Below, in pieces: positions 23,088 through 59,720 of a stretch of DNA of 64,000 nt (positions are counted from its first letter, which is position 1; every line of letters begins with the position of its first letter). The DNA is from Octopus vulgaris. Its lineage: Eukaryota. The DNA is taken from the NCBI GenBank assembly GCA_951406725.2, contig OX597819.1:49476001-49540000 (forward strand), in the 5' to 3' direction. The notes below the pieces were generated by a model that was not told the DNA's origin, did no database searches, and worked only from the letters and a program-made list of their open reading frames with translations. A program made the position numbers and the translations under genes.

Positions 23088-23518
23088 GAGGCAGTGAGCT
23101 GACAGAAATGTTAGTATGCTGGGCAAAATGCTTAGTAATATTTCATCTGTCTTTATGTTCTGAGTTCAAATTCCGCTGAAGTCGACTTTGCCTTTTATCC
23201 TTTCAGGGTCATTAACTTAAGTATCAGTTATGCACTGGAGTCAATGCAATTGACTTAATCCCTTTGTCTGTCCTTGTTTGTCCCCTCTATGTTTAGCCAC
23301 TTGTAGGCAATAAAGAAATAAGAAACGTTAGCATGCTGGGCAAAATGCTTAGTGATATTTCGTTTGTCTTTACGTTCTGAGTTCAAATTCCGCCGAGGTC
23401 ACCTTTGCCTTTCATCCTTTCAGGGTTGATAAATTAAATATCACTTGCATACTGAGGTCGATCTAATCAACTCGCCCCCTCCCCCAAAATTTCAGGCCTA
23501 GTGCCTAGAGTAGAAAAG
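23088..23518 (+). mobile_element. Heterodimeric SINE B (tail-1 unit + tail-2 unit)
   Basis: Two B bodies joined at AATAAAGAAATA|AGAAACGTTAGC; 16-bp TSD AATA(T/A)ACATATTGGTT at 23072-23087 and 23519-23534. Confidence 0.85.
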
Positions 23519-47255: not shown

Positions 47256-47488
47256 TATTTCTTTATTGCCCACAAGGGGCTAAACATAGAGGGGACAAAC
47301 AAGGACAGACAAAGGGATTAAGTCGATTACATCGACCCCTGTGCGTGACTGACACTTAATTTATCAACCCCGAAAGGATGAAAAGCAAAGTTGACCTCGG
47401 CGGAATTTGAACTCAGAACGTAGCGGCAGACGAAATACCGCTAAGCATTTCACCCAGCATGCTAACGTTTCTGCTAGCTTGCCACCTT
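47256..47488 (-). mobile_element. SINE B, tail type 1
   Basis: Family match; 15-bp TSD TGTCTG(A/T)TATTTTCT at 47241-47255 and 47489-47503. Confidence 0.92.
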
Positions 47489-48162: not shown

Positions 48163-48504
48163 ACAGACACTTAATTTTATTGATCTGTACTTGCCAAACT
48201 ATTAGGTTATGGACATAAAGAAACATAGTGCACCAATTCATGAGGGATATTGGATTTGAAACAGGTAAGTGGATCCTGGTTTTTAGACTAGGTATTCTAG
48301 TTCCTTGCTCATGTCTTTCCTACAACAGTTTTAGCAGGGCGTTAATAACATCAGTCTTACCAGTTTTGGAGGGCTTGCAAAGACCATGAGCACTGGCCTT
48401 ATCTCCAGACTCAGTAAAAATAAAAAAAGAAGGAAAAACACAACACAAGGTGACTCAAGTGAAAGCACACACATACATTTATATGACAATTTCTGTCTAC
48501 CAAA

Positions 48505-48865
48505 TTAGTGGCTATCATGGTTATGATCATGATTTCCATGTATTATGTAGGGGAAAAGAATTAGATTACTATAAATATTCAAAATGTTTTCTCCTACACA
48601 CAGTTTAAGCATTACATTTTGTATGTTTTTTCTTTTTATCTTTTAGTTTGGAAGGAAAACAGTGCCTATGACTATACAGAGCCACAGAGCTGATGAAGAG
48701 GGGAAGGTAGCCTCAAACCTTAGACCTGAATACTTGCAACAGAGTAGACTCTACAAAAGGTACCCATGGCAGTAAGGTGATAGTGTTAAAGCAGATGACA
48801 GATTAAGTCTAGCACCTAAGTAGACCATAGTGGGATTTGAACTCATATTGCAAAGAGTCACAACA
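48505..48865 (+). repeat. Local direct duplication, copy 1 (copy 2 at ~49862-50203)
   Basis: TGGCTATC(A/G)TGGTTATGATCAT...GCAAAGAGTCAC alignable over ~350 bp. Confidence 0.9.
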
Positions 48866-48874
48866 AATTAGTGA

Positions 48875-49123
48875 ATATATGTATATATATATATATATGT
48901 GTGTGTTTGTGTGTGTATACGTTTGTGTGTCTGTGTTTGTCCCCCCAACATCGCTTGACAACTGATGCTGGTGTGTTTACGTCCCCGTAACTAAGCAGTT
49001 CGACAAAAGAGACCAATAGAATAAGTACTAGGCTTACAAAGAATAAGTCCTGGAGTCGATTTGCTCGACTAAAGGCGGTGCTCCAGCATGGCTGCAGTCA
49101 AATGACTGAAACAAGTAAAAGAG
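48875..49123 (+). mobile_element. SINE A 3' half
   Basis: Microsatellite plus 3' domain. Confidence 0.88.
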
Positions 49124-49861
49124 TATATACATCAACAATCCCTATCTCCATGGAACATTTCATTCTATGTAAATAACTAAGCTTTGCAACCATTGAAGAA
49201 TTTCAAACCCAGTTTTATTATCAGAGATTAGTGATAGGCATCCCACTAAGAGTAAGCCTGTCTACATGCATATCACTGTTTGATAGTTATATATATATAT
49301 ATCCAGGCTTATTTCCCATTTTTTGGGGGTGGCAGGGGTGGGGGTAGCCACAACAAGACACACACCAGGCATTCCATTCATTTCCCAGCTCAAAGTGGCA
49401 AGCCCCACCCTCAACCCCATTTGATAGTTACTGGCAGCAAACTAGGACTGAACCTGGTTAGATTCATTCCTCATCATCTTGTGACTTTAATGGAAAGTCT
49501 TTCCTCAATAGTGTATATCCCAATTGATCAACCAACCATGTATATTGGCTAAGTTTTCTTTGCTTAAGCTAGTTTCCATTCTATGGTTGAATGGATACTT
49601 TACATTTAGTGGAATCACTTTTTCTTAAAAGTATATTTCTTCAGTAAAAAAGTTTTCCTGACCTTTCTTGCTTCCTGGAGCTTCTAAAAGTTCAAAGGAA
49701 AATCAATAGGCTTCTAATTTTTTACATGTGTTTTATATCGTTCTTTAGGTGTGAAAGAATTATGGATTTGACCTTTCACTAAAAGAGCTATTTTAAAAAT
49801 AAATCTTTTTGATTCAGTAAAACGTTTTTTTTTCTTACATATCTGCTAAATGCTGATGAAG

Positions 49862-50203
49862 TTGGCTATCGTGGTTATGATCATAATTTCCATGTATTAT
49901 TTGGAGGAAAAGAATTAGATTCCTACAAATACTCAAAATGTTTTCTCCTACACACAGTTTAAGCATTACATTTTGTAATTTGTTTTCTTTTTATCTTTTA
50001 GTTTGGAAAGCAAACAGTGCCTATGGTTCAGAGCTGGTGAGAGGGAGGAAGGCATCCTCAAACCACAGACCTGAATACTTGCAACAGAGTAGACTCTACG
50101 AAAGATACCCAAGGCAGTAGGTGATAATGTTAAAGTAGATAACAAGTCTAGCACCTAAGTAGATCATAGTGGGATTTGAACTCATATTGCAAAGAGTCAC
50201 TAC
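49862..50203 (+). repeat. Local direct duplication, copy 2
   Basis: Aligns with 48505-48865. Confidence 0.9.
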
Positions 50204-51744: not shown

Positions 51745-52033
51745 TGGGAGTTGTAGACATAGCTGTGTTGTTAAGTTTGCTTCTTAACCATGTGGTCCCA
51801 GGTTCAGTCCCACTGCATGTTCGATAAGTGTCTTTGTCTACAGCTCCGGGTCAACCAAAGCTTTGTGAGAGATTTTGATAGAGAGAAACTAAAAGAAGCT
51901 CATCATATGTATACATGCATGTGTGTGTGTGTGTGTGTTTCTGTGTATGTATGTGTATGTATGTACGTATGCACGGATGGATGGATCAATGGATGGATAG
52001 ATGTGTGTGTATGTCATGTGATGGCTGTAAATG
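51745..52033 (+). mobile_element. SINE variant D 5' part, truncated where the LINE begins
   Basis: Diverged A head, TG microsatellite, GTCATGTGATGGCTGTAAA. Confidence 0.7.
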
Positions 52034-53416
52034 AACGAAGGTTAACAAGGACAAGTCGGGCGGTTTACAACTCGGCACCTGGAGGAGCAAGCCGATGCCA
52101 TCAAATAACGTTGTGGGGTGTTGGACGGAAGGTCCTGTTAAGCTGCTCAGAGTTTAGATTGGTCCAGACGTCCTGATAGAGCGGTCTGACCGTGGTGTCT
52201 TGCCCCGATTTGTGGTTGAACAAGTTGGAGAAAATCCTTATCCGCTTTTTGTAGAAGGGAGGAAAGCCACTTGTAAAGCACTCTGTCTGCTGCTAGAAGC
52301 CGCTAAAGAGTGGGTTAGGGATGCCTTGCCTGAGGATGCGAAAATTCACGTTACGGTCGAGGCACCTCTGGTTTTACCTGGATGGAGAGCAGGTGTGGTC
52401 ACCGCACGTCCGGTTCTATATCCCGCAGTTAACGTCCTAAATGGACGTTGGTACATGGATCAAGAAGAGACCTAGGCTGGGGGACTGGCAATTGGAGTAT
52501 TGTCAGGCACTTCAGCTATTCTCTTGGACAGGCAATGCCGGCAGCTGGAGTTCCACCGTGGATTTTTATAGTGGGTTAGTAGAAATCAATTCCAAAGACG
52601 CCTTAGGGGAGACCTTGGGCTACGATGAAAATCAGTTAATCAACCTGTTCAGGAAAACGTTCAGGCCGGGGTATCTGAATAATTACAAGAAATCCCTAGC
52701 TTGGCAGTGCTTCCGTGTGGCGTTACCGGTTCGTGACAAGCTTTCAAGGCACGGAAGTGCCGTCTCGCTGACATGCCCGAGATGTGGGCAGGATAGGGAA
52801 ACCGTCTTGCATGCATTCGTGGAGTGTCTGGAATTATCGGGACTGATAGCTTTCGTCGAACAACTGATATCAATGATGGGAAGAGTACAGCTATCGGCTG
52901 AGTCTATCATCAAGATCGTGCCACCTTCTTCCCTTACCAGGGAAAGGAAGACCTGTTTTTCCTGCGTAGTAGCCATATGAAAGAAACAGTATGGAAGACG
53001 CGTGTGAAAGGCATAGTGACAGGTACCTTTGTCTCTGGCCAGGGGTTGGTCAACTTCTTTAGTTACCACCTCAATAGTAAGATCAGGCTGGAGAAGAAGT
53101 GTCTGTTACAGGATATATTTGTTAAAAGATGGAAACCTGTGGAAAGTAAGTTGGGTGTGATTGGCACCAAGTAAGTGTATTCAAGATGAAAAGTAAATGT
53201 TCTACCCAGGTTGCAGGATGCCTTTAGGTAATACATTGCAAGTCGCAATGAACGTAAAATTTTTAAAAATTTTGAAACTATATATATTGTTTCAGGATTC
53301 ACCTATCATCCGAGACTGTTTTTTAATCGATTAGCAGCTACTTCACCTTTTTATGTTTGTTTGTCTTTGTTCGTCCCCTCTTTGTAATGTCATCGTGGTA
53401 AATTTGACGAAATAAA
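52034..53416 (+). mobile_element. Tx1-type (L1 clade) LINE, copy 1, 3' portion
   Basis: KVNKDKS RT C-terminus; zf-RVT-like WQCFRVALPVRDKL...TCPRCGQDRETVLHAFVEC (ORF 52441-52980); ORF2 stop at 53174; 3' UTR ending AATAAA. Confidence 0.88.
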
Positions 53417-54112
53417 GTAATTTGCTTACCTGTCTCATGGTTAGACGTGTTTCTTTGGTGGTGAGTCAAACGTTTTCTTGAACGTTGGATAATTTTTCTG
53501 TTGGAATTCCTGACTGTTTATTGTTGAACATTTTCGAACTGTTGAACATTGTTGAACTTTTAAACTTTGGAAATTTTTGTGCTTTTTCCCGGTGACGGGA
53601 GAAAGTAATTGTTTGTGTAAAGCCATTTTTGCAGTTGTGAATTGTTGAAATATTGAACTTGTTAAAGCCGTTGTAGGCGTTATTGTAGTACCTCCACCAA
53701 GCGGGGATGGGATTTGAACTGTTAGCCTCATTAAGAGGAAAAAAATATTATAGGTTTCCCGTTTTTTGTGTGTTTTTTTTAGATAATCAATTTATTACTG
53801 TGTGAAAATTTTAATTTTAGCCGTTGTAGGCACTATTGTGGCACCCCGCCCCTAGTGGGGTGAGATTTGAACTGTTGTCGTCCTCGTTGTGAGGGGAAAA
53901 AAATATTATAGGTTTCCCGTTTTTTGGGATACCGTATTTTTATTATTGTGTGAAAAATTTAATTTCGAACATTGCAGGCTTTGTTGTTACGTCTCGCCCC
54001 CCAGCGGGGGTGGGATTTGAACTGCTGTCCTCGTTGAGATGAAAAAAAAGTAAAAATTATAGGTTTCCCGTTTTCAGGGATTAAGTTGTGTATAAATTTA
54101 TTCTGAACGAAC

Positions 54113-54980
54113 ATGTCAGTCGAAATAATTTCAGAAAAATTCACTAGAAGAGCCAGTTAAGAAATTTTCAGCAGTTACTGCGGTGGCTACTGAAAACATC
54201 GAACTACCAAAGGAAAGCTCTCCGAGCTTTTTGAAAAAATGAAAGAAGAGGTGGGTGATATAGAAATATCACCCTCACCTCGTGTTGAAAAATTGAAAAG
54301 AAGGACAGTTGTTTTCAAAACATAGTGTCCTTCAACAAAGAAATTTAAGCACTTTGAGCAGTGCAAAATTGAAAAATGTCTGGCTCCCATATGGGAAGAC
54401 ATAAAGTATATAGCGAGGGGCCGTACTTATGGTACAGTAGAGGCCAGATTTGAAACAGAAGTAAAAGCCCAAGAGCACTCAGTGAGTCCCCTGAAGACGA
54501 AGTAGTTGGTACTTCTGCCAACCTACATGAGAGACAAACTGCTCGAGTAAGAGTGACAGAAGTGCCACCTGAAGTTGGTGTAAGGGGAGTGATGGCCGCC
54601 CTGTTGTATATCAGGACAGACAAAATCGCCTTCCTTCAGATCACACGCACTGCCCCACAAAACTGGCTCGGGCAAAGCATTTCTACCATTATTCAGAGAA
54701 CTCGGGAAGAAATCGAAATGCTTCCAGAGAGGGGGCTCTTGGGTGAAGATATCGCCCTCGGAATACAAGTAGATGGCAAAAAAACCAACGTGATACGAAT
54801 GTAGCAAAAAAGGCCACATCCGTATAGACTGTGAACAATGGAAAAGAAAAGTGGCACAGGCAGCAGGCCCCTCAATTACAAAAAAAGACCCCAAACCCGC
54901 ACACGCATTAGCCCCGACAGAAACAAAAATCCATACTCCCCCATCTGTGGTGCCCGCCCACAAACACGACACCCCAAAAC
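54113..54980 (+). pseudogene. Tx1 ORF1 (gag-like) pseudogene
   Basis: RTVVFKT and RVRVTEVPPEV segments; knuckle (C>stop)YECSKKGHIRIDC at 54791-54832 fits CX2CX4HX4C. Confidence 0.75.
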
Positions 54981-56438
54981 CCCAGAGTTAATGATTTTGG
55001 CCAAGGTGCTAGCGAAAAGGTTGGCGCGGGGCGTAGACAAACTTGTAGGGGGTGCACAAATGTGCGCTATCCCAGGCAGGATGATCCACAACAATCTCCA
55101 CCTTATACGCTACTCCTTAGAGAGGGTGGGGAAACTTTCTGGGGTAGGGGGGGGGGCACTGGTACATTTAGACCAGTCTAAGGCATTTGATAGGGTTGAC
55201 CATTGATACTTAGTGACGGTCTTCGAGAAGGCTGGCCTGGGCCCGACCTTCTGTGGTTGGATTGCTGCGTTGTATAACAACATCGAGTCTGTCATAAAAG
55301 TGAATGGTTTCCTTTCGAAGCCATTCAGAATCGAACAATCAGTGCATCAGGGGTGTTCCCTGTCTCCGCTTTTGTATGTGTTGGCTCCCAAACCATTACT
55401 GCGGAAGTTGGAGGCACTAGGGGGCACCCCACATGATCTATGGTGTGGAAGAGGAGCTATGGCGTATGCGGATGACATCTCCATCATCGTGGCAAATGAA
55501 GGCTAGCTTCCAGTGGTGGAAGAGGCTATCAAAAGTTACGAGGCGGTAGCAGGAGCGAAGGTTAACAAGGACAAGCCAATCGGTGTGCAACTCAGCACCT
55601 GGATGGGCAAGCCTTGGGGAATACTCTGGGCTACGATGAAAATCAGTTGATCGATCTGTTCAGGAGAACTTTCGAGCTGGGGTACCTGGATACTTACCAG
55701 AAATCCCTGGCCTGGCAGTGCTTTCATGTGGCACTACCTATTCGTGATAAACTGTCAAGGCACAGAAGTGCCGTCTCGCCGACATGTCTGAGATGCGGGC
55801 GGAACATGGAAACTGTCTTGCTTGAATTTATGGAATTTCCGGAATTAACGGGACTGATAACTTTCACAGAACAACTGTTGTCATCGATGGGAAGAGAACA
55901 GCTATCAGCTGAGTCTATCATTGAGATTGTGCCACCTCCTTCCCTTAACAGGGAAAGGAGGGCTTGCTTTTTCTGCGTAGTAGCCATATGCAACCGAAAT
56001 TTAAAAAAAAATTTTCGAAAATTTTACCCAAAAATTTTCCAAAAATTTTAACCAGAAAGTTTTCGAAAATTTTCACCGAAAACTTTACCCAAAAATTTAC
56101 CGAAAATTTCACCTAAAAAGTTTTCGAAAATTTTCACCGAAAATTTTACCCAAAAATTTTCTGAAAATTTTCATCGAAAATTTTTCCCCAAAATTTGTCG
56201 AAAATTTTACCCAAAAGTTTTCACCGAAATTTTTCAAAAATCTTTCGAAACAGTATGGAAGATGCATGTGAGAGGCACAGTGATGGGTACCTTTGTATCT
56301 GGCTAGGGGTTGGTCAACTATTTTAGTTACCACCTCAATAGTAAGATCAAGCTGGAGAAGAGGTACCTGTCATGAGATAGATTCATGGAAAGATGGAAGC
56401 CTGTAGCAAGGAATTTGGGAGCGACTGGCACCAGGTAA
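54981..56438 (+). pseudogene. Tx1 ORF2 reverse transcriptase pseudogene (endonuclease missing)
   Basis: ILAKVLAKRL, LDQSKAFDRVDH, QGCSLSPLLY, AYADDI, GAKVNKDK, then zf-RVT-like region; stops, deletion and minisatellite insertion. Confidence 0.92.
55991..56246. repeat. AAAATTTT-based minisatellite inserted in LINE copy 2
   Basis: Many GAAAATTTT(C/A)(A)CC units; absent from copy 1 (GCCATATGAAAGAAACAGTATGG). Confidence 0.9.
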
Positions 56439-56911
56439 GTGGAGTCCAAAAAAAAAGAAAAGGAAAGAGAAAGCAAGGGTTCTACCCTGGTGATCGGATG
56501 CCTTTCCGTCAGGGAAGTCATTGAAAATCACAGTGAGTAACATGTTATCATGTAATTGGTAATTAGTGATTTGTAATTTGTAAATAGTAATTTGTAATTT
56601 TTAGATTGTATCATAAATTTATCATTATAAATTTTTAAACATTGTAGCAGCTACTACATTTTTTTGTTTGTCTGTCCTTGTTCGTCTCCTCTTTGTAATG
56701 CCTTCATGGCAAATTTTATGAAATAAAGTAGCTTGCTTACCAACCATATGGTTCCGGGTTCAGTCCCACTGCATGGCACCTTGGGCAAGTGTCTTCTACT
56801 ATAGCCTCAGGCCTACCAAAGCCTTTTGAGTGGATTTGGTAGACGGAAACTGAAAGAAGCCTGTCGTATATATATATATGTATGATAATGATATATATAT
56901 ATATATATATG

Positions 56912-56953
<42 letters not shown>

Positions 56954-56954
<1 letters not shown>

Positions 56955-58235
56955 GAGGGGAGTTCAATAAGTAATGCCCCTGACCCACTTGCAGTTGTTT
57001 GATCTAGCTGAAATTTTGTGTGTGCAATTATTTACATCTCTATAGAGTATGTGGCAAATTACAGCTTTGAACTAATTGGGGTTTCTGATTTACAGGTGTT
57101 TGAACTGAGTCAAGTGTGAAATGGAGTCTGTTGAGTGTCGAGTAGTGATCTGGTTTTTGTATTTGAAAGGACGCACACCACGGGAGACTTTTGATGAAAT
57201 GAAAGTAACTTATGGTAATGATGCCCCATCATATGACCTTGTAAAACGCTGGCATCGTGAATTCAAACATGGTCGGAACTCGGTGGAAACAGCTCCCAGA
57301 TCTGGTCGCCCCACTTCTGCAATTGATGAGGCATCTGTCCGTCAAGTTGAGGCTGCCATTTTGGAAGATCGACGCATAACTATTCGCCAAATAGCCCACG
57401 AGGTCAAGATTAGTACCGGGTCTGTGGAAACTATCATTCATGACCATTTGCATGTGCAAAAGGTGTCTGCCAGATGGATTCCCAGGTTGCTCACACCTTT
57501 CCAGAAGCAAGAACGCGTCGAGTGCTCGAGGATGAATTTGGAGATGTGCCAAGAAGATGAGTCAAAATTTTTCAAAAGACTGATTACACAGGATGAAACC
57601 TGGGTCCATCACTATGATCCAGAGACCAAAGCCCAGTCAATGCAGTGGAAGCACTGTGACTTACCTCCTCCAAAGAAGGCAAGGGTGCAGCCCTCCGCTG
57701 GCAAGGTCATGCTCACAGTCTTCTGGGACCAGGACGGAGTAGTGATAACAGATTTCCTGGCAAAGGGTACCACAATTACAGGAGCCTATTATGCTTCACT
57801 TTTGAGGAAATTAAGAGAAACTATCAAAATCAAGAGGCGGGGAAAGATCAGCAAAGACATCAGGACAACGCTCCGGTCCACAACTCGCTTGTCGCCAGAT
57901 CAGAAGCACAGGCGTGCGGTTATGAACTCCTCCCCCATCCCCCCTACTCTCCTGACCTTGCACCCTCTGATTTTCACCTCTTCCCAGCCATGAGGTTGTT
58001 TTTGAAAGGAAAGCTTTTCCCAGATGATGCAGCCTTGATTTCTGAAGTCACGTCGTGGTTGGAGGACCAAGCTGGGTCTTCTAAAAAAACGGTCTCCAGA
58101 GCTGCATCAAACAATGGGAGAAATGTGTAAATCTGGGTGGTTCCTATGTAGAGAAAGACTAATAACTGTACAAAGTTTCGTTGCTCTACTCCTATGAGAA
58201 GTGGGTCAGGGGCATTACTTATTGAATGCCCCTCG
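56954..58235 (+). mobile_element. Young full-length mariner (irritans/Himar1-Hsmar2-like)
   Basis: 37-bp TIRs CGAGGGG(AG/CA)TTCAATAAGTAATGCCCCTGACCCACTT with 2 mismatches, TA on both sides, 1282 bp. Confidence 0.95.
57121..58162 (+). pseudogene. Mariner transposase, frameshifted near 57860 and ~58075
   Basis: ORF 57121-57993: SGRP, WIPRLL, ITQDETWVHHYDPETK, KVMLTVFWD; DNAPVH and YSPDLAPSDFHLF in a shifted frame; ends GSYVEKD*. Confidence 0.93.
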
Positions 58236-58268
<33 letters not shown>

Positions 58269-58292
58269 ATGATGATGATATATATATATATA

Positions 58293-58521
58293 TATCTGTA
58301 AATTAATATGTGACAATTATTCAATAGCCAAGATAAAACTCTGAGTTTCTGGCCAGATAACCGAAGAGATGGTGTTGTGGATTTCCACTTCGGCATCCGA
58401 AACTCAGAGTTTTATCTTGGCTATTGAATAATTGTCACATATTAATTTACAGATAAATTTCCTCTATTTACATAATATTGAGGTCTCTTTCTTTCTTTTG
58501 TTATCTTACCGTTTTTACCAA
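58293..58521 (+). mobile_element. Penelope-like terminal fragment with inverted duplication
   Basis: Perfect 57-bp inverted repeat 58293-58349 / 58399-58455 inside (TA)n, overlapping a hammerhead-like motif. Confidence 0.65.
58352..58421 (+). ncRNA. Candidate minimal type I hammerhead ribozyme (core variant CCGAAGA)
   Basis: Stem I GCCAGATAA/TTATCTTGGC, core CCGAAGA 58361-67, stem II GATG/CATC enclosing GTGGA-TT-TCCAC, GAAA 58399-402, stem III CTC-A-GAG, GUU cleavage triplet. Confidence 0.55.
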
Positions 58522-59302
58522 TATATATATATATATAAGTATGTGTGTGTATATATGTTTGTGTGTCTGTGTTTGACCCCCCCACCCAACATCACTTGAC
58601 AACTGATGCTGGTGTGTTTACGTCCCCGTAACTTAGCAGTTCAGCATAGAATAAGTCCTGGGGTTGATTTGCTTGACAAAAGGCGGTGCTCCAGCATGGC
58701 CACAGTCAAATGACTGAAACAAGTAAAAGAGTAAAAAGAGAGTAAAGGGTAATGGAAGTAGAAGTATAAAGCACAAACAAACGGGACATTGATTGGAGAA
58801 TTATATTTAAGCTATTCAGAAACTGGATGACAAGCAATGAGAATAATTAACTGTTAGGGAACTCTTTAACGTTTACATATGTTTCAGCAGTAATGTACTC
58901 TTCGTGTTAGTCTAGGATACAATGCTTCTAAGTAGCAAGTTTATTATTGATAAACTCTTTTCCCTTTACATGAAATTGATGGACACAAACTGATAGTTTA
59001 TTTGTTTTGAGTCCATTCTCCAAGAAGAACAAGTTCTTTTATATCATGAGCAAATTTTAAAACAGTTTTTAAGTCAAATTAAATTCAAACAAAGAAAATT
59101 ATATTTTCATTTGAGACAATGTTAAAAAGTTGCATACATTGAGGTCAAGACAGACAAGTGGTAAAACAAGATTGCAAATGAGTAGAAATAATGGCTTGAA
59201 AAAGCAATTAAAACCTAAAATGAGGAAAACCTATGGGCTCTAGCAAAAAGATGAGAAAAGATCCAGTTAAGTTTTGGTTAGACATGTTCAGGTCAAGCTT
59301 TA

Positions 59303-59720
59303 AAGCACCCACTACACTCACAGAAAAAACGTTAGCACACCGGACGAAATGCTTAGAGGTATTTTGTCTGCCGTTACATTCTGAGTTCAAATTCCGCCGA
59401 GGTCGACTTTGCCTTTCATCCTTTCGGGGTCGATAAATAAAGTACCAGTTACGCACTGGGGTTGATGTAATCGACTTAATCCGTTTGTCTGTCCTTGTTT
59501 GTCCCCTCTATGTTTGGCCCCTTGTGGGCAATAAAGTAATAGGTTGGCATTAGGAAGGGTATCCAGCTGTAGAAACTCTGCCAGATCAGATTGGAGTCTG
59601 GTGCAGTCATCTGGTTCGCCAGACCTCAGTCAAATAGTCCAACCCATGCTAGCATGGAAAGCGGACGTTAAATGATGGTGATGATGATGATGATGATGAT
59701 GATGAGGATGATGATGATGA
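59303..59720 (+). mobile_element. Family C 3' part interrupted by SINE B tail-1 (~59322-59540)
   Basis: AGCACCCACTACACTCAC | SINE B | GGTTGGCATTAGGAAGGG...(GAT)n. Confidence 0.87.

What the first reader, a model, noticed from the sequence alone, without database searches (positions are those of the whole stretch)
53411..56753. Tx1 LINE apparently targets one site in the head of a tRNA-derived SINE
Seen: copy 2 ends AATAAA|GTAGCTTGCTTACCAACCATATGGTT (56727), just 3' of where the A box of SINE A would be (consensus TGGCTGTGTGGTAAGTAGCTTGCTTACCAACCACATGGTT). The diverged copy 1 ends at the same register, AATAAA|GTAATTTGCTTACCTGTCTCATGGTT (53416), matching 22 of 28 nt of the SINE consensus. Neither has a poly(A) tail. 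Established: Tx1-clade LINEs often insert sequence-specifically into multicopy targets (tRNA arrays, snRNA, 5S rDNA, other TEs) and pile up in tandem. Inference: a Tx1 family that uses an abundant SINE as its target, with the 53415-53442 motif being the duplicated target reused by a second insertion.
Basis: partly seen in the sequence, partly recalled or inferred. Interest (0 to 1): 0.85.

Follow-up and report, generated by a model that had tools for sequence, protein, structure and literature searches.

The report
LINE retrotransposons that target a SINE
A lineage of LINE retrotransposons in this genome sits almost always at one exact position inside the promoter region of a very abundant SINE, so one genomic parasite uses another as its landing site, and it likely carries a short copy of that site on its own RNA to finish each insertion.

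Summary
Confirmed and extended. The window holds two decayed copies of an APE/RT LINE in tandem (family W), followed by the 3' part of a tRNA-derived CORE-type SINE. Genome-wide, 27 of 29 W 3' ends sit at the same SINE-derived motif and 23 run into the SINE body. 26 of 30 W 5' ends follow the SINE head or another LINE end plus the motif. A young, intact sister family (A; 5.44 kb, 107 exact ends) uses the same site in 30 of 30 ends examined. Related families in this genome use microsatellites or no fixed site. Correction: the junction repeat is 14 nt, not 28, and it is not a pure target duplication. In 17 of 18 full-length A copies whose own target lacks TAACC, the 5' junction still ends TAACC, so at least the last bases travel with the element. 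A favours the TAACC SINE variant 53:12 against a ~51:49 background, while W almost never sits in it. Nine open-access literature searches found Tx1 elements targeting DNA transposons, LTR elements, snRNA, 5S and microsatellites, but none targeting a SINE; Repbase/Dfam were not checkable. Verdict: new variant of a known kind.

The parts
51774..52032 (+). Older, diverged copy of the same SINE; its microsatellite and tail abut the truncated 5' end of LINE copy 1 (context; the head of the actually targeted SINE is missing from the window)
   Evidence: 73.5% to the SINE at 56728 over 51774-51921; tail read
52033..53416 (+). LINE copy 1, 5'-truncated: ORF2 aa ~732-1150 of the intact sister (end of RT, zf-RVT), stop at 53172-53174, 3' UTR ending AATAAA, no poly(A)
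   Evidence: 86-88% nt to intact family A; zf-RVT E 3.9e-8
53417..53430 (+). Tandem junction 14-mer GTAATTTGCTTACC: target-like motif; by analogy with family A its first part is likely duplicated target and its last bases likely the 5' leader of copy 2
53431..54112 (+). LINE copy 2 5' UTR starting TGTCTCATGGTTAGACG, with ~150-bp internal repeats (53666-54081)
54113..54985 (+). Copy 2 ORF1 remnant (broken by stops and frameshifts; CCHC knuckle in better copies)
   Evidence: (tblastn to sister ORF1 aa 11-313)
54983..56438 (+). Copy 2 ORF2 remnants: RT aa ~518-750 and C-terminus aa ~959-1150; endonuclease and aa ~751-958 deleted; 12-bp tandem repeat at 55992-56246
   Evidence: (D9)
56439..56727 (+). 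Copy 2 3' UTR ending GGCAAATTTTATGAAATAAA, no poly(A)
56728..56741 (+). Target 14-mer GTAGCTTGCTTACC; insertion point AA|GTAG lies just 3' of the A-box region, upstream of the B box
56742..56883 (+). Body of the targeted SINE: B-box-like GGTTCAGTCCC (56757-56767) and CORE motif CCTTGGG (56779-56785); its tail resumes at about 58540-58745 after a mariner and a hairpin insertion
   Evidence: (D12, D14, D20)

Best explanation
A lineage of LINEs, likely Tx1-clade, inserts at one fixed position (AA|GTAGCTTGCT[T/A]ACC) between the A and B boxes of an abundant tRNA-derived SINE, likely because its endonuclease nicks that sequence and its RNA carries a short target-like 5' leader that completes the junction. 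Steps: (1) Shown: the 3' end is joined at the same base in nearly all copies, in pre-existing SINE copies of more than one variant. (2) Inferred from the intact APE domain and established target-primed reverse transcription: ORF2p nicks the bottom strand at AA|GTAG and reverse-transcribes the poly(A)-less RNA from there. (3) Shown: full-length young copies end 5' in (T)GCTAACC/CTAACC whatever their local target; inferred: this leader on the cDNA anneals to the cut top strand and primes second-strand synthesis, giving an apparent 14-nt duplication, and slips by a base when the target mismatches. (4) Shown: the regenerated motif is reused, giving tandem arrays that mix different families, as in this window. 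(5) Inferred: the lineage has followed SINE subfamily turnover (W in TTACC copies, young A mostly in TAACC copies).
For: W 3' ends: 27 of 29 at the motif, 23 into SINE body; 23 of 25 exact 22-mer ends whose 13th flank base is not G are close matches to GTAGCTTGCTTAC. W 5' ends: 16 of 30 follow a SINE head, 10 of 30 an upstream LINE end plus motif. Family A: 107 exact 3' ends; of the first 30 in position order all 30 begin AGTAG and 29 run into the SINE body, the 30th has a SINE head at its 5' side. Intact ORF1 (488-codon frame, CCHC) and ORF2 (1150-codon frame: Exo_endo_phos, RVT_1, zf-RVT). Independent insertion: L004 carries the same private variant GTAGCCTGTGC on both sides; truncated copies L151, L156, L167 abut the SINE head directly; A copies are 99.1% identical over their last 600 nt but their flanking SINE bodies 94.9% (min 88.3%) (17 copies). 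Leader: 33 of 34 full-length A copies have TAACC at the 5' junction, including 17 of 18 whose 3' flank lacks it; junction length classes do not cluster by LINE haplotype (permutation p 0.22 and 0.34); imprecise junctions 11 of 17 at mismatched versus 4 of 16 at matched targets (Fisher p 0.037, post hoc). Variant bias: A 53 TAACC vs 12 TTACC against 27,671 vs 26,278 intact exact sites (binomial p 6e-7); W 1 of 25 TAAC. Controls: W and A form one clade (100/99), while sister families B, C, D in the same genome end in variable flanks, (TC)n and (TATC)n.
Against: No biochemistry: nicking, the top-strand cut position and the RNA 5' end were not observed. The window itself lacks the SINE head. 2 of 29 and 2 of 25 W ends match only the first 3-6 nt of the motif. 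3 of 30 W 5' ends have no head or motif. Truncated A copies show little or no duplication (L151, L156, L167), whereas L004 and L172 show 11-14 nt, so the true duplication length is unsettled. L103 and L180 differ between their 5' and 3' copies at positions 2 and 7, which a simple 7-nt duplication does not explain. The 18 non-TAACC copies were mostly chosen on purpose (20 regions), and about 20 more could not be fetched. The background for the variant bias is a 33-mer count, the LINE count a 14-mer count. No empty allele of a filled locus was seen.
Confidence: 0.82

Rival explanations
1. Same site, different recognition: ORF2p is tethered by Pol III factors bound to the SINE's A/B boxes and cuts at a fixed distance (as recalled for tRNA-gene-targeting TRE elements of Dictyostelium and Ty3), with sequence secondary.
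For: The site lies between the A-box region and B box of a tRNA-like head; the younger-looking TAACC variant, which may be more often transcribed, is favoured.
Against: Tandem arrays need reuse of junctions that have lost either the A box or the B box; 0 of 92 LINE-type 3' flanks hold a tRNA gene; base-exact 3' register; the two poor-match W ends still start GTAG.
Confidence: 0.08
2. The lineage is really aimed at a host tRNA (or other small RNA) gene and hits the SINE only through homology.
For: The SINE head aligns end to end with genomic tRNA-Lys/Glu-type genes (score 55-58 vs shuffle maximum 41-45); tRNA genes are known transposon targets (Dada, PMC3706591, passage).
Against: 0 of 92 flanks are tRNA genes; the 20 tRNA genes fetched (of 34 listed, 6 amino-acid types) differ from the 14-mer at 6 or more positions; at least 53,949 exact SINE sites exist.
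Confidence: 0.04
3. No targeting: the SINE-plus-LINE composite moved as one unit (hitchhiking), or the SINE body is the LINE's own 3' end.
For: Many A flanks belong to one closely related SINE variant; part of the 5' motif is element-borne.
Against: Flanks are more divergent than the LINE and include both body types; private variant on both sides of L004; SINE heads directly upstream of differently truncated copies; several families with different 3' UTRs share the site.
Confidence: 0.04
4. The two window copies are a local duplication of one insertion.
For: Head-to-tail arrangement.
Against: 82.5% and 70% identity between copies, while copy 2's 3' UTR is 92% identical to a copy on another contig; different truncations and deletions.
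Confidence: 0.01

Closest known systems
Target-specific Tx1-clade LINEs: Xenopus Tx1 (into Tx1D piggyBac), crocodilian Tx1-Mar (Mariner-N4_AMi), Tx1-9_AMi (Harbinger), Tx1-8_Crp/Tx1-4_AMi (LTR elements), Keno (U2), Kibi/Koshi (microsatellites) (PMC4494074, passages and section 15)
   Same: APE/RT LINE with a fixed site in a multicopy sequence, including other transposons; far above that paper's 20% flank criterion; sister families here use (TC)n and (TATC)n, much as Kibi/Koshi use (TC)n and (TTC)n
   Different: The target is a non-autonomous retroposon (SINE), at a point that splits its Pol III promoter; no SINE target is named in the passages read (figure 3 labels and supplements not seen)
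R1 and R2 rDNA elements (PMC2718515 section 15; PMC3774820 abstract)
   Same: Fixed 3' junction, tandem arrays, 14-bp duplication in ancestral R1, and target sequence on the RNA 5' end postulated to anneal and prime second-strand synthesis
   Different: Different clade and target; no ribozyme match at this element's 5' end; here the leader mimics bases downstream of the nick and can be told from the local target because SINE copies differ
Dada DNA transposons (PMC3706591, passage)
   Same: Insert at or near the A box of Pol III (tRNA) genes
   Different: DNA transposons aimed at functional RNA genes; the word SINE does not occur in PMC3706591 or PMC8869645
CORE-SINEs, e.g. octopus OR1 (PMC4824008, PMC5786205, passages)
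   Same: tRNA-like head followed by the conserved CCTTGGG CORE motif
   Different: Identity of this SINE with OR1/OR2 or a Repbase entry was not tested; no reference sequence was available

Membership tests
Tx1 clade | ORF2 with N-terminal APE endonuclease and non-LTR RT | tested here: met
   Family A ORF2: PF03372 aa 27-243, PF00078 aa 526-771; best PDB hits are L1 endonucleases. Window copies align to it at about 67-81% aa but copy 2 has lost the endonuclease
Tx1 clade | ORF1 with CCHC zinc knuckle; C-terminal zinc-binding motif in ORF2 (features recalled) | tested here: met
   zf-CCHC in ORF1 of A and W; zf-RVT in A and both window copies
Tx1 clade | RT phylogeny groups with Tx1 rather than L1 | tested here: inconclusive
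   Groups with two proteins that their sources name 'Transposon TX1', apart from plant L1-type proteins, support 90/85; no Xenopus Tx1L, Keno or vertebrate L1 in the tree, and source names are automatic
Target-specific non-LTR element | More than 20% of flanks in one sequence type (criterion in PMC4494074) | tested here: met
   27 of 29, 23 of 25, 30 of 30
Target-specific non-LTR element | Endonuclease cleaves the target in vitro | not testable with these tools
   needs purified protein
tRNA-derived SINE (target) | Head homologous to tRNA with A and B boxes; dispersed, high copy; not itself a tRNA gene | tested here: met
   Colinear alignment to genomic tRNA genes above 200 shuffles; 53,949 exact 33-mers; ARAGORN finds 0 tRNAs in the window; Rfam gave no tRNA hit on one copy
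CORE-SINE (target) | CORE domain after the head | tested here: inconclusive
   CCTTGGG motif at 56779-56785 matches the conserved motif quoted in PMC5786205; no full CORE alignment made
R2-like ribozyme-processed elements | HDV-like ribozyme at the 5' end | tested here: inconclusive
   No ribozyme family among 5 weak Rfam hits over the 5' 570 nt; Rfam would miss a divergent one

The most novel reading that the evidence does not exclude
A hyperparasitic LINE lineage that retunes itself to its host SINE partly through RNA: the target-like 5' leader is re-captured from whichever SINE subfamily is current (an older CTTTGCTTACC relic lies 18 nt inside family A's present TGCTAACC leader), and pairing of that leader with the target biases which SINE copies are productively invaded, so specificity tracks SINE evolution without needing a matching endonuclease change.
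Probability: 0.3. Interest if true: 0.87.

Novelty: new variant of a known kind. Interest (0 to 1): 0.72.

Why it matters
It adds a target class (a SINE's internal promoter) to the known list for site-specific LINEs and shows several families sharing it across RT divergence of about 6-20%. Because SINE copies differ, each insertion records which junction bases came from the target and which from the element; near-identical rDNA targets rarely allow this. That makes the long-open question of how non-LTR second-strand synthesis is primed testable from sequence. An intact, young element and its differently targeted sisters in one genome also give a natural series for mapping APE-endonuclease specificity. 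Impact on the SINE itself is probably small: 413 exact occupied junctions against 53,949 exact free sites.

Tried and rejected
The 28-nt duplication was rejected (53431-53442 is LINE 5' end). Local duplication was rejected. Inheritance of the whole 14-15-nt junction from donor lineages is not supported. A second SINE (SINE-B), whose tail resembles the LINE 3' UTR, is not co-targeted: 1 of 39 ends at the motif. Rfam searches of the SINE head and of the family-A 5' end gave only sub-threshold hits. The first homologue search returned no Tx1-named protein among its best 120 of 782; a second, from a sea-cucumber homologue, gave two. Sequencing runs: no RNA holder listed. Contigs of four runs, labelled organisms A, B and C, cover the element, but no listed piece bridges a junction by 31 nt on both sides, so they say nothing on empty alleles, expression or targeting in other species. 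The search of earlier findings returned nothing. Supplements of PMC4494074 could not be read; they may list further Tx1 targets. Literature searches: (open-access full text only).
Full report
Observation. The two junctions are exactly as reported: copy 1 ends AATAAA at 53416, copy 2 at 56727, neither with poly(A), and each is followed by a GTAGCTTGCTTACC-like 14-mer. After copy 2 the SINE body follows. Intact copies of this SINE in the window read GGAGTGGCTGTGTGGTAA-GTAGCTTGCTTACC-AACCACATGGTTCCGGGTTCAGTCCC, so the LINE end lies just 3' of the A-box region and upstream of the B box. The head aligns colinearly with genomic tRNA genes above shuffled controls and is followed by the CCTTGGG motif quoted for CORE-SINEs (PMC5786205, passages). 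The genome is 2.8 Gb in 227 contigs; the closest named RT homologue is from Argonauta (65%), so an octopod host is likely (inference).

Window anatomy. Mapped on an intact sister element, copy 1 (52033-53416) is the 3' third of ORF2 plus 3' UTR. Copy 2 (53431-56727) has both ends, but a broken ORF1, no endonuclease, an internal ORF2 deletion and a 12-bp tandem repeat. The copies are 82.5% and 70% identical, which rules out a local duplication. The SINE head that should precede the pair is absent; copy 1 abuts the tail of an older SINE copy.

3' ends of the window family (W). A search with the flank-free 3' UTR scored 40 hits; I fetched the top 30 loci, which hold 29 distinct 3' ends. 23 run into the SINE body at the same register, 2 into the motif plus another W 5' end, 1 into the full motif then other sequence, and 1 into an array of SINE heads. 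2 match only GTAG(CT). A pattern search listing all 25 exact 22-mer ends whose 13th flank base is not G gave 23 close matches, 1 of them the TAAC variant. Across all families there are 413 exact LINE-end/SINE-body junctions against 27,671 + 26,278 exact uninterrupted sites.

5' ends. Of 30 loci (top 30 of 41 hits), 16 follow a SINE head (one with a microsatellite between), 10 follow another LINE 3' end plus the motif, 1 has the motif only and 3 have neither. Several upstream partners have different 3' UTRs: several families share the site and form mixed arrays. The truncated copy L004 has a private variant on both sides, which is what insertion into a pre-existing SINE copy predicts.

A young intact sister. 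An RT search found family A: 5.44 kb, with ORF1 (CCHC) and ORF2 (APE endonuclease, RT, zf-RVT). It has 107 exact 3' ends. The first 30 by position all begin AGTAG; 29 enter the SINE body, and the other has a SINE head upstream and runs into what looks like another family's 5' end. Over 17 copies the LINE's last 600 nt are 99.1% identical pairwise and the flanking SINE bodies 94.9% (minimum 88.3%), covering both body types. Truncated copies L151, L156 and L167 join the SINE head directly. In an RT tree (38 rows; window copy 1 left out as too short) W, window copy 2 and A form one clade (100/99). Sister families B, C and D end in variable flanks, (TC)n and (TATC)n; these rest on few copies (4 of 5 C ends and 1 D end seen).

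The 5' repeat is partly element-borne. Among 34 full-length A copies with both ends, 33 have TAACC at the 5' junction, including 17 of 18 whose own 3' flank lacks it; the exception has lost the whole motif (three truncated or unfound 5' ends were left out; most non-TAACC copies were selected deliberately). Junctions come as 14 nt or 15 nt with an extra T. These classes do not cluster by LINE haplotype (p 0.22, 0.34), and 15-nt junctions are commoner at mismatched targets (11 of 17 vs 4 of 16, p 0.037, post hoc). The simplest reading is an RNA 5' leader of about (T)GCTAACC whose cDNA copy anneals to the cut top strand, as postulated for R2 (PMC3774820, abstract) and melanogaster-type R1 (PMC2718515, section 15). 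The top-strand cut is not fixed by these data: truncated copies range from no duplication to 11-14 nt, and L103 and L180 differ at positions 2 and 7. No ribozyme was detected. An older target-like relic (CTTTGC[T/C]TACC) lies 18 nt inside A's 5' end.

Variant tracking. A sits in exact TAACC 53 times and exact TTACC 12 times against a ~51:49 background of 33-mers (p 6e-7; the lengths compared differ). W is 1 of 25 TAAC, consistent with W predating that variant (inference). Whether the bias comes from the endonuclease, the leader or chromatin is open.

Rivals. A tRNA gene as true target: 0 of 92 flanks hold one, and 20 fetched tRNA genes (of 34 listed) differ from the 14-mer at 6 or more positions; this is not a full tRNA set. 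Pol III tethering is disfavoured by reuse of junctions lacking a box but is not excluded. Hitchhiking is contradicted by flank divergence and truncated copies; no empty allele was seen, and the read-laying test was uninformative.

Known comparison and novelty. Tx1 membership: domains met, phylogeny suggestive only (90/85 with automatically named TX1 proteins; no canonical references). PMC4494074 (passages and section 15; figure and supplements not seen) lists Tx1 targets in piggyBac, Mariner, Harbinger, LTR elements, U2/U5, 5S, satellites and microsatellites. PMC13282606 (passages) reports recently active L1-Tx1 families in an octopus without the word 'target'. PMC3706591 and PMC8869645 (term finds) do not mention SINEs. 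PMC4824008 (passages) names octopus OR1 as a CORE-SINE. Nine searches found no SINE-targeting LINE; subscription papers and Repbase/Dfam were out of reach, so prior annotation is possible. Verdict: real, strongly supported, a new variant of target-specific Tx1-like LINEs; interest 0.72.

Noticed in passing
window 59440-59540, 23260-23320, 47284-47313, 461-486 (and 39 ends across fetched loci): A second abundant SINE has a 3' tail resembling the 3' UTR of these LINEs and ends AATAAAGAAATA like sister families B, C, D; it may be mobilised by a Tx1-like LINE. It is not targeted to the first SINE (1 of 39).
   Followed up: partly
window 56953-58236: Near-complete mariner (terminal inverted repeats, 294-codon frame with Transposase_1 and HTH_48) inserted in the (TA)n stretch of the targeted SINE.
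   Followed up: yes
window 58290-58458: 60-bp near-perfect inverted repeat with a 49-nt loop in the same (TA)n stretch, MITE- or hairpin-like.
   Followed up: no
window 55992-56246: 12-bp tandem repeat (AAAATTTTCGAA-like, partly palindromic) inside copy 2 ORF2, absent from other copies.
   Followed up: no
L020:509-890 and L083:2350-2420: Tandem arrays of the 24-31-nt SINE head alone; in L020 a W copy sits inside the array at the usual register.
   Followed up: partly
G000:C9:59206606-59249571, C5:29186660-29203227 (L129, L131, L133-L136): Family B, an intact relative with no shared flank, forms long head-to-tail arrays (5.28-kb spacing, at least 7 listed copies on C9) whose junction sequence differs between arrays.
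   Followed up: partly
L121, L127, L128, L132; L140: Families C and D end in (TC)n and (TATC)n microsatellites, Kibi-like behaviour in close relatives of the SINE-targeting clade.
   Followed up: partly
L061, L067, L070, L077, L097: Many W copies keep both ends but have large internal deletions (1.4-3 kb long), some sharing breakpoints; possibly non-autonomous derivatives.
   Followed up: no
L112, L144, L186, L028, L092 junctions: Further unidentified 5' ends (e.g. GCACATGCGC..., TGCGCATG...) follow the SINE head plus motif, suggesting more SINE-targeting families with their own target-like leaders.
   Followed up: no
window 48380-48880 and 49790-50200: A local ~400-bp direct duplication seen by eye.
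   Followed up: no
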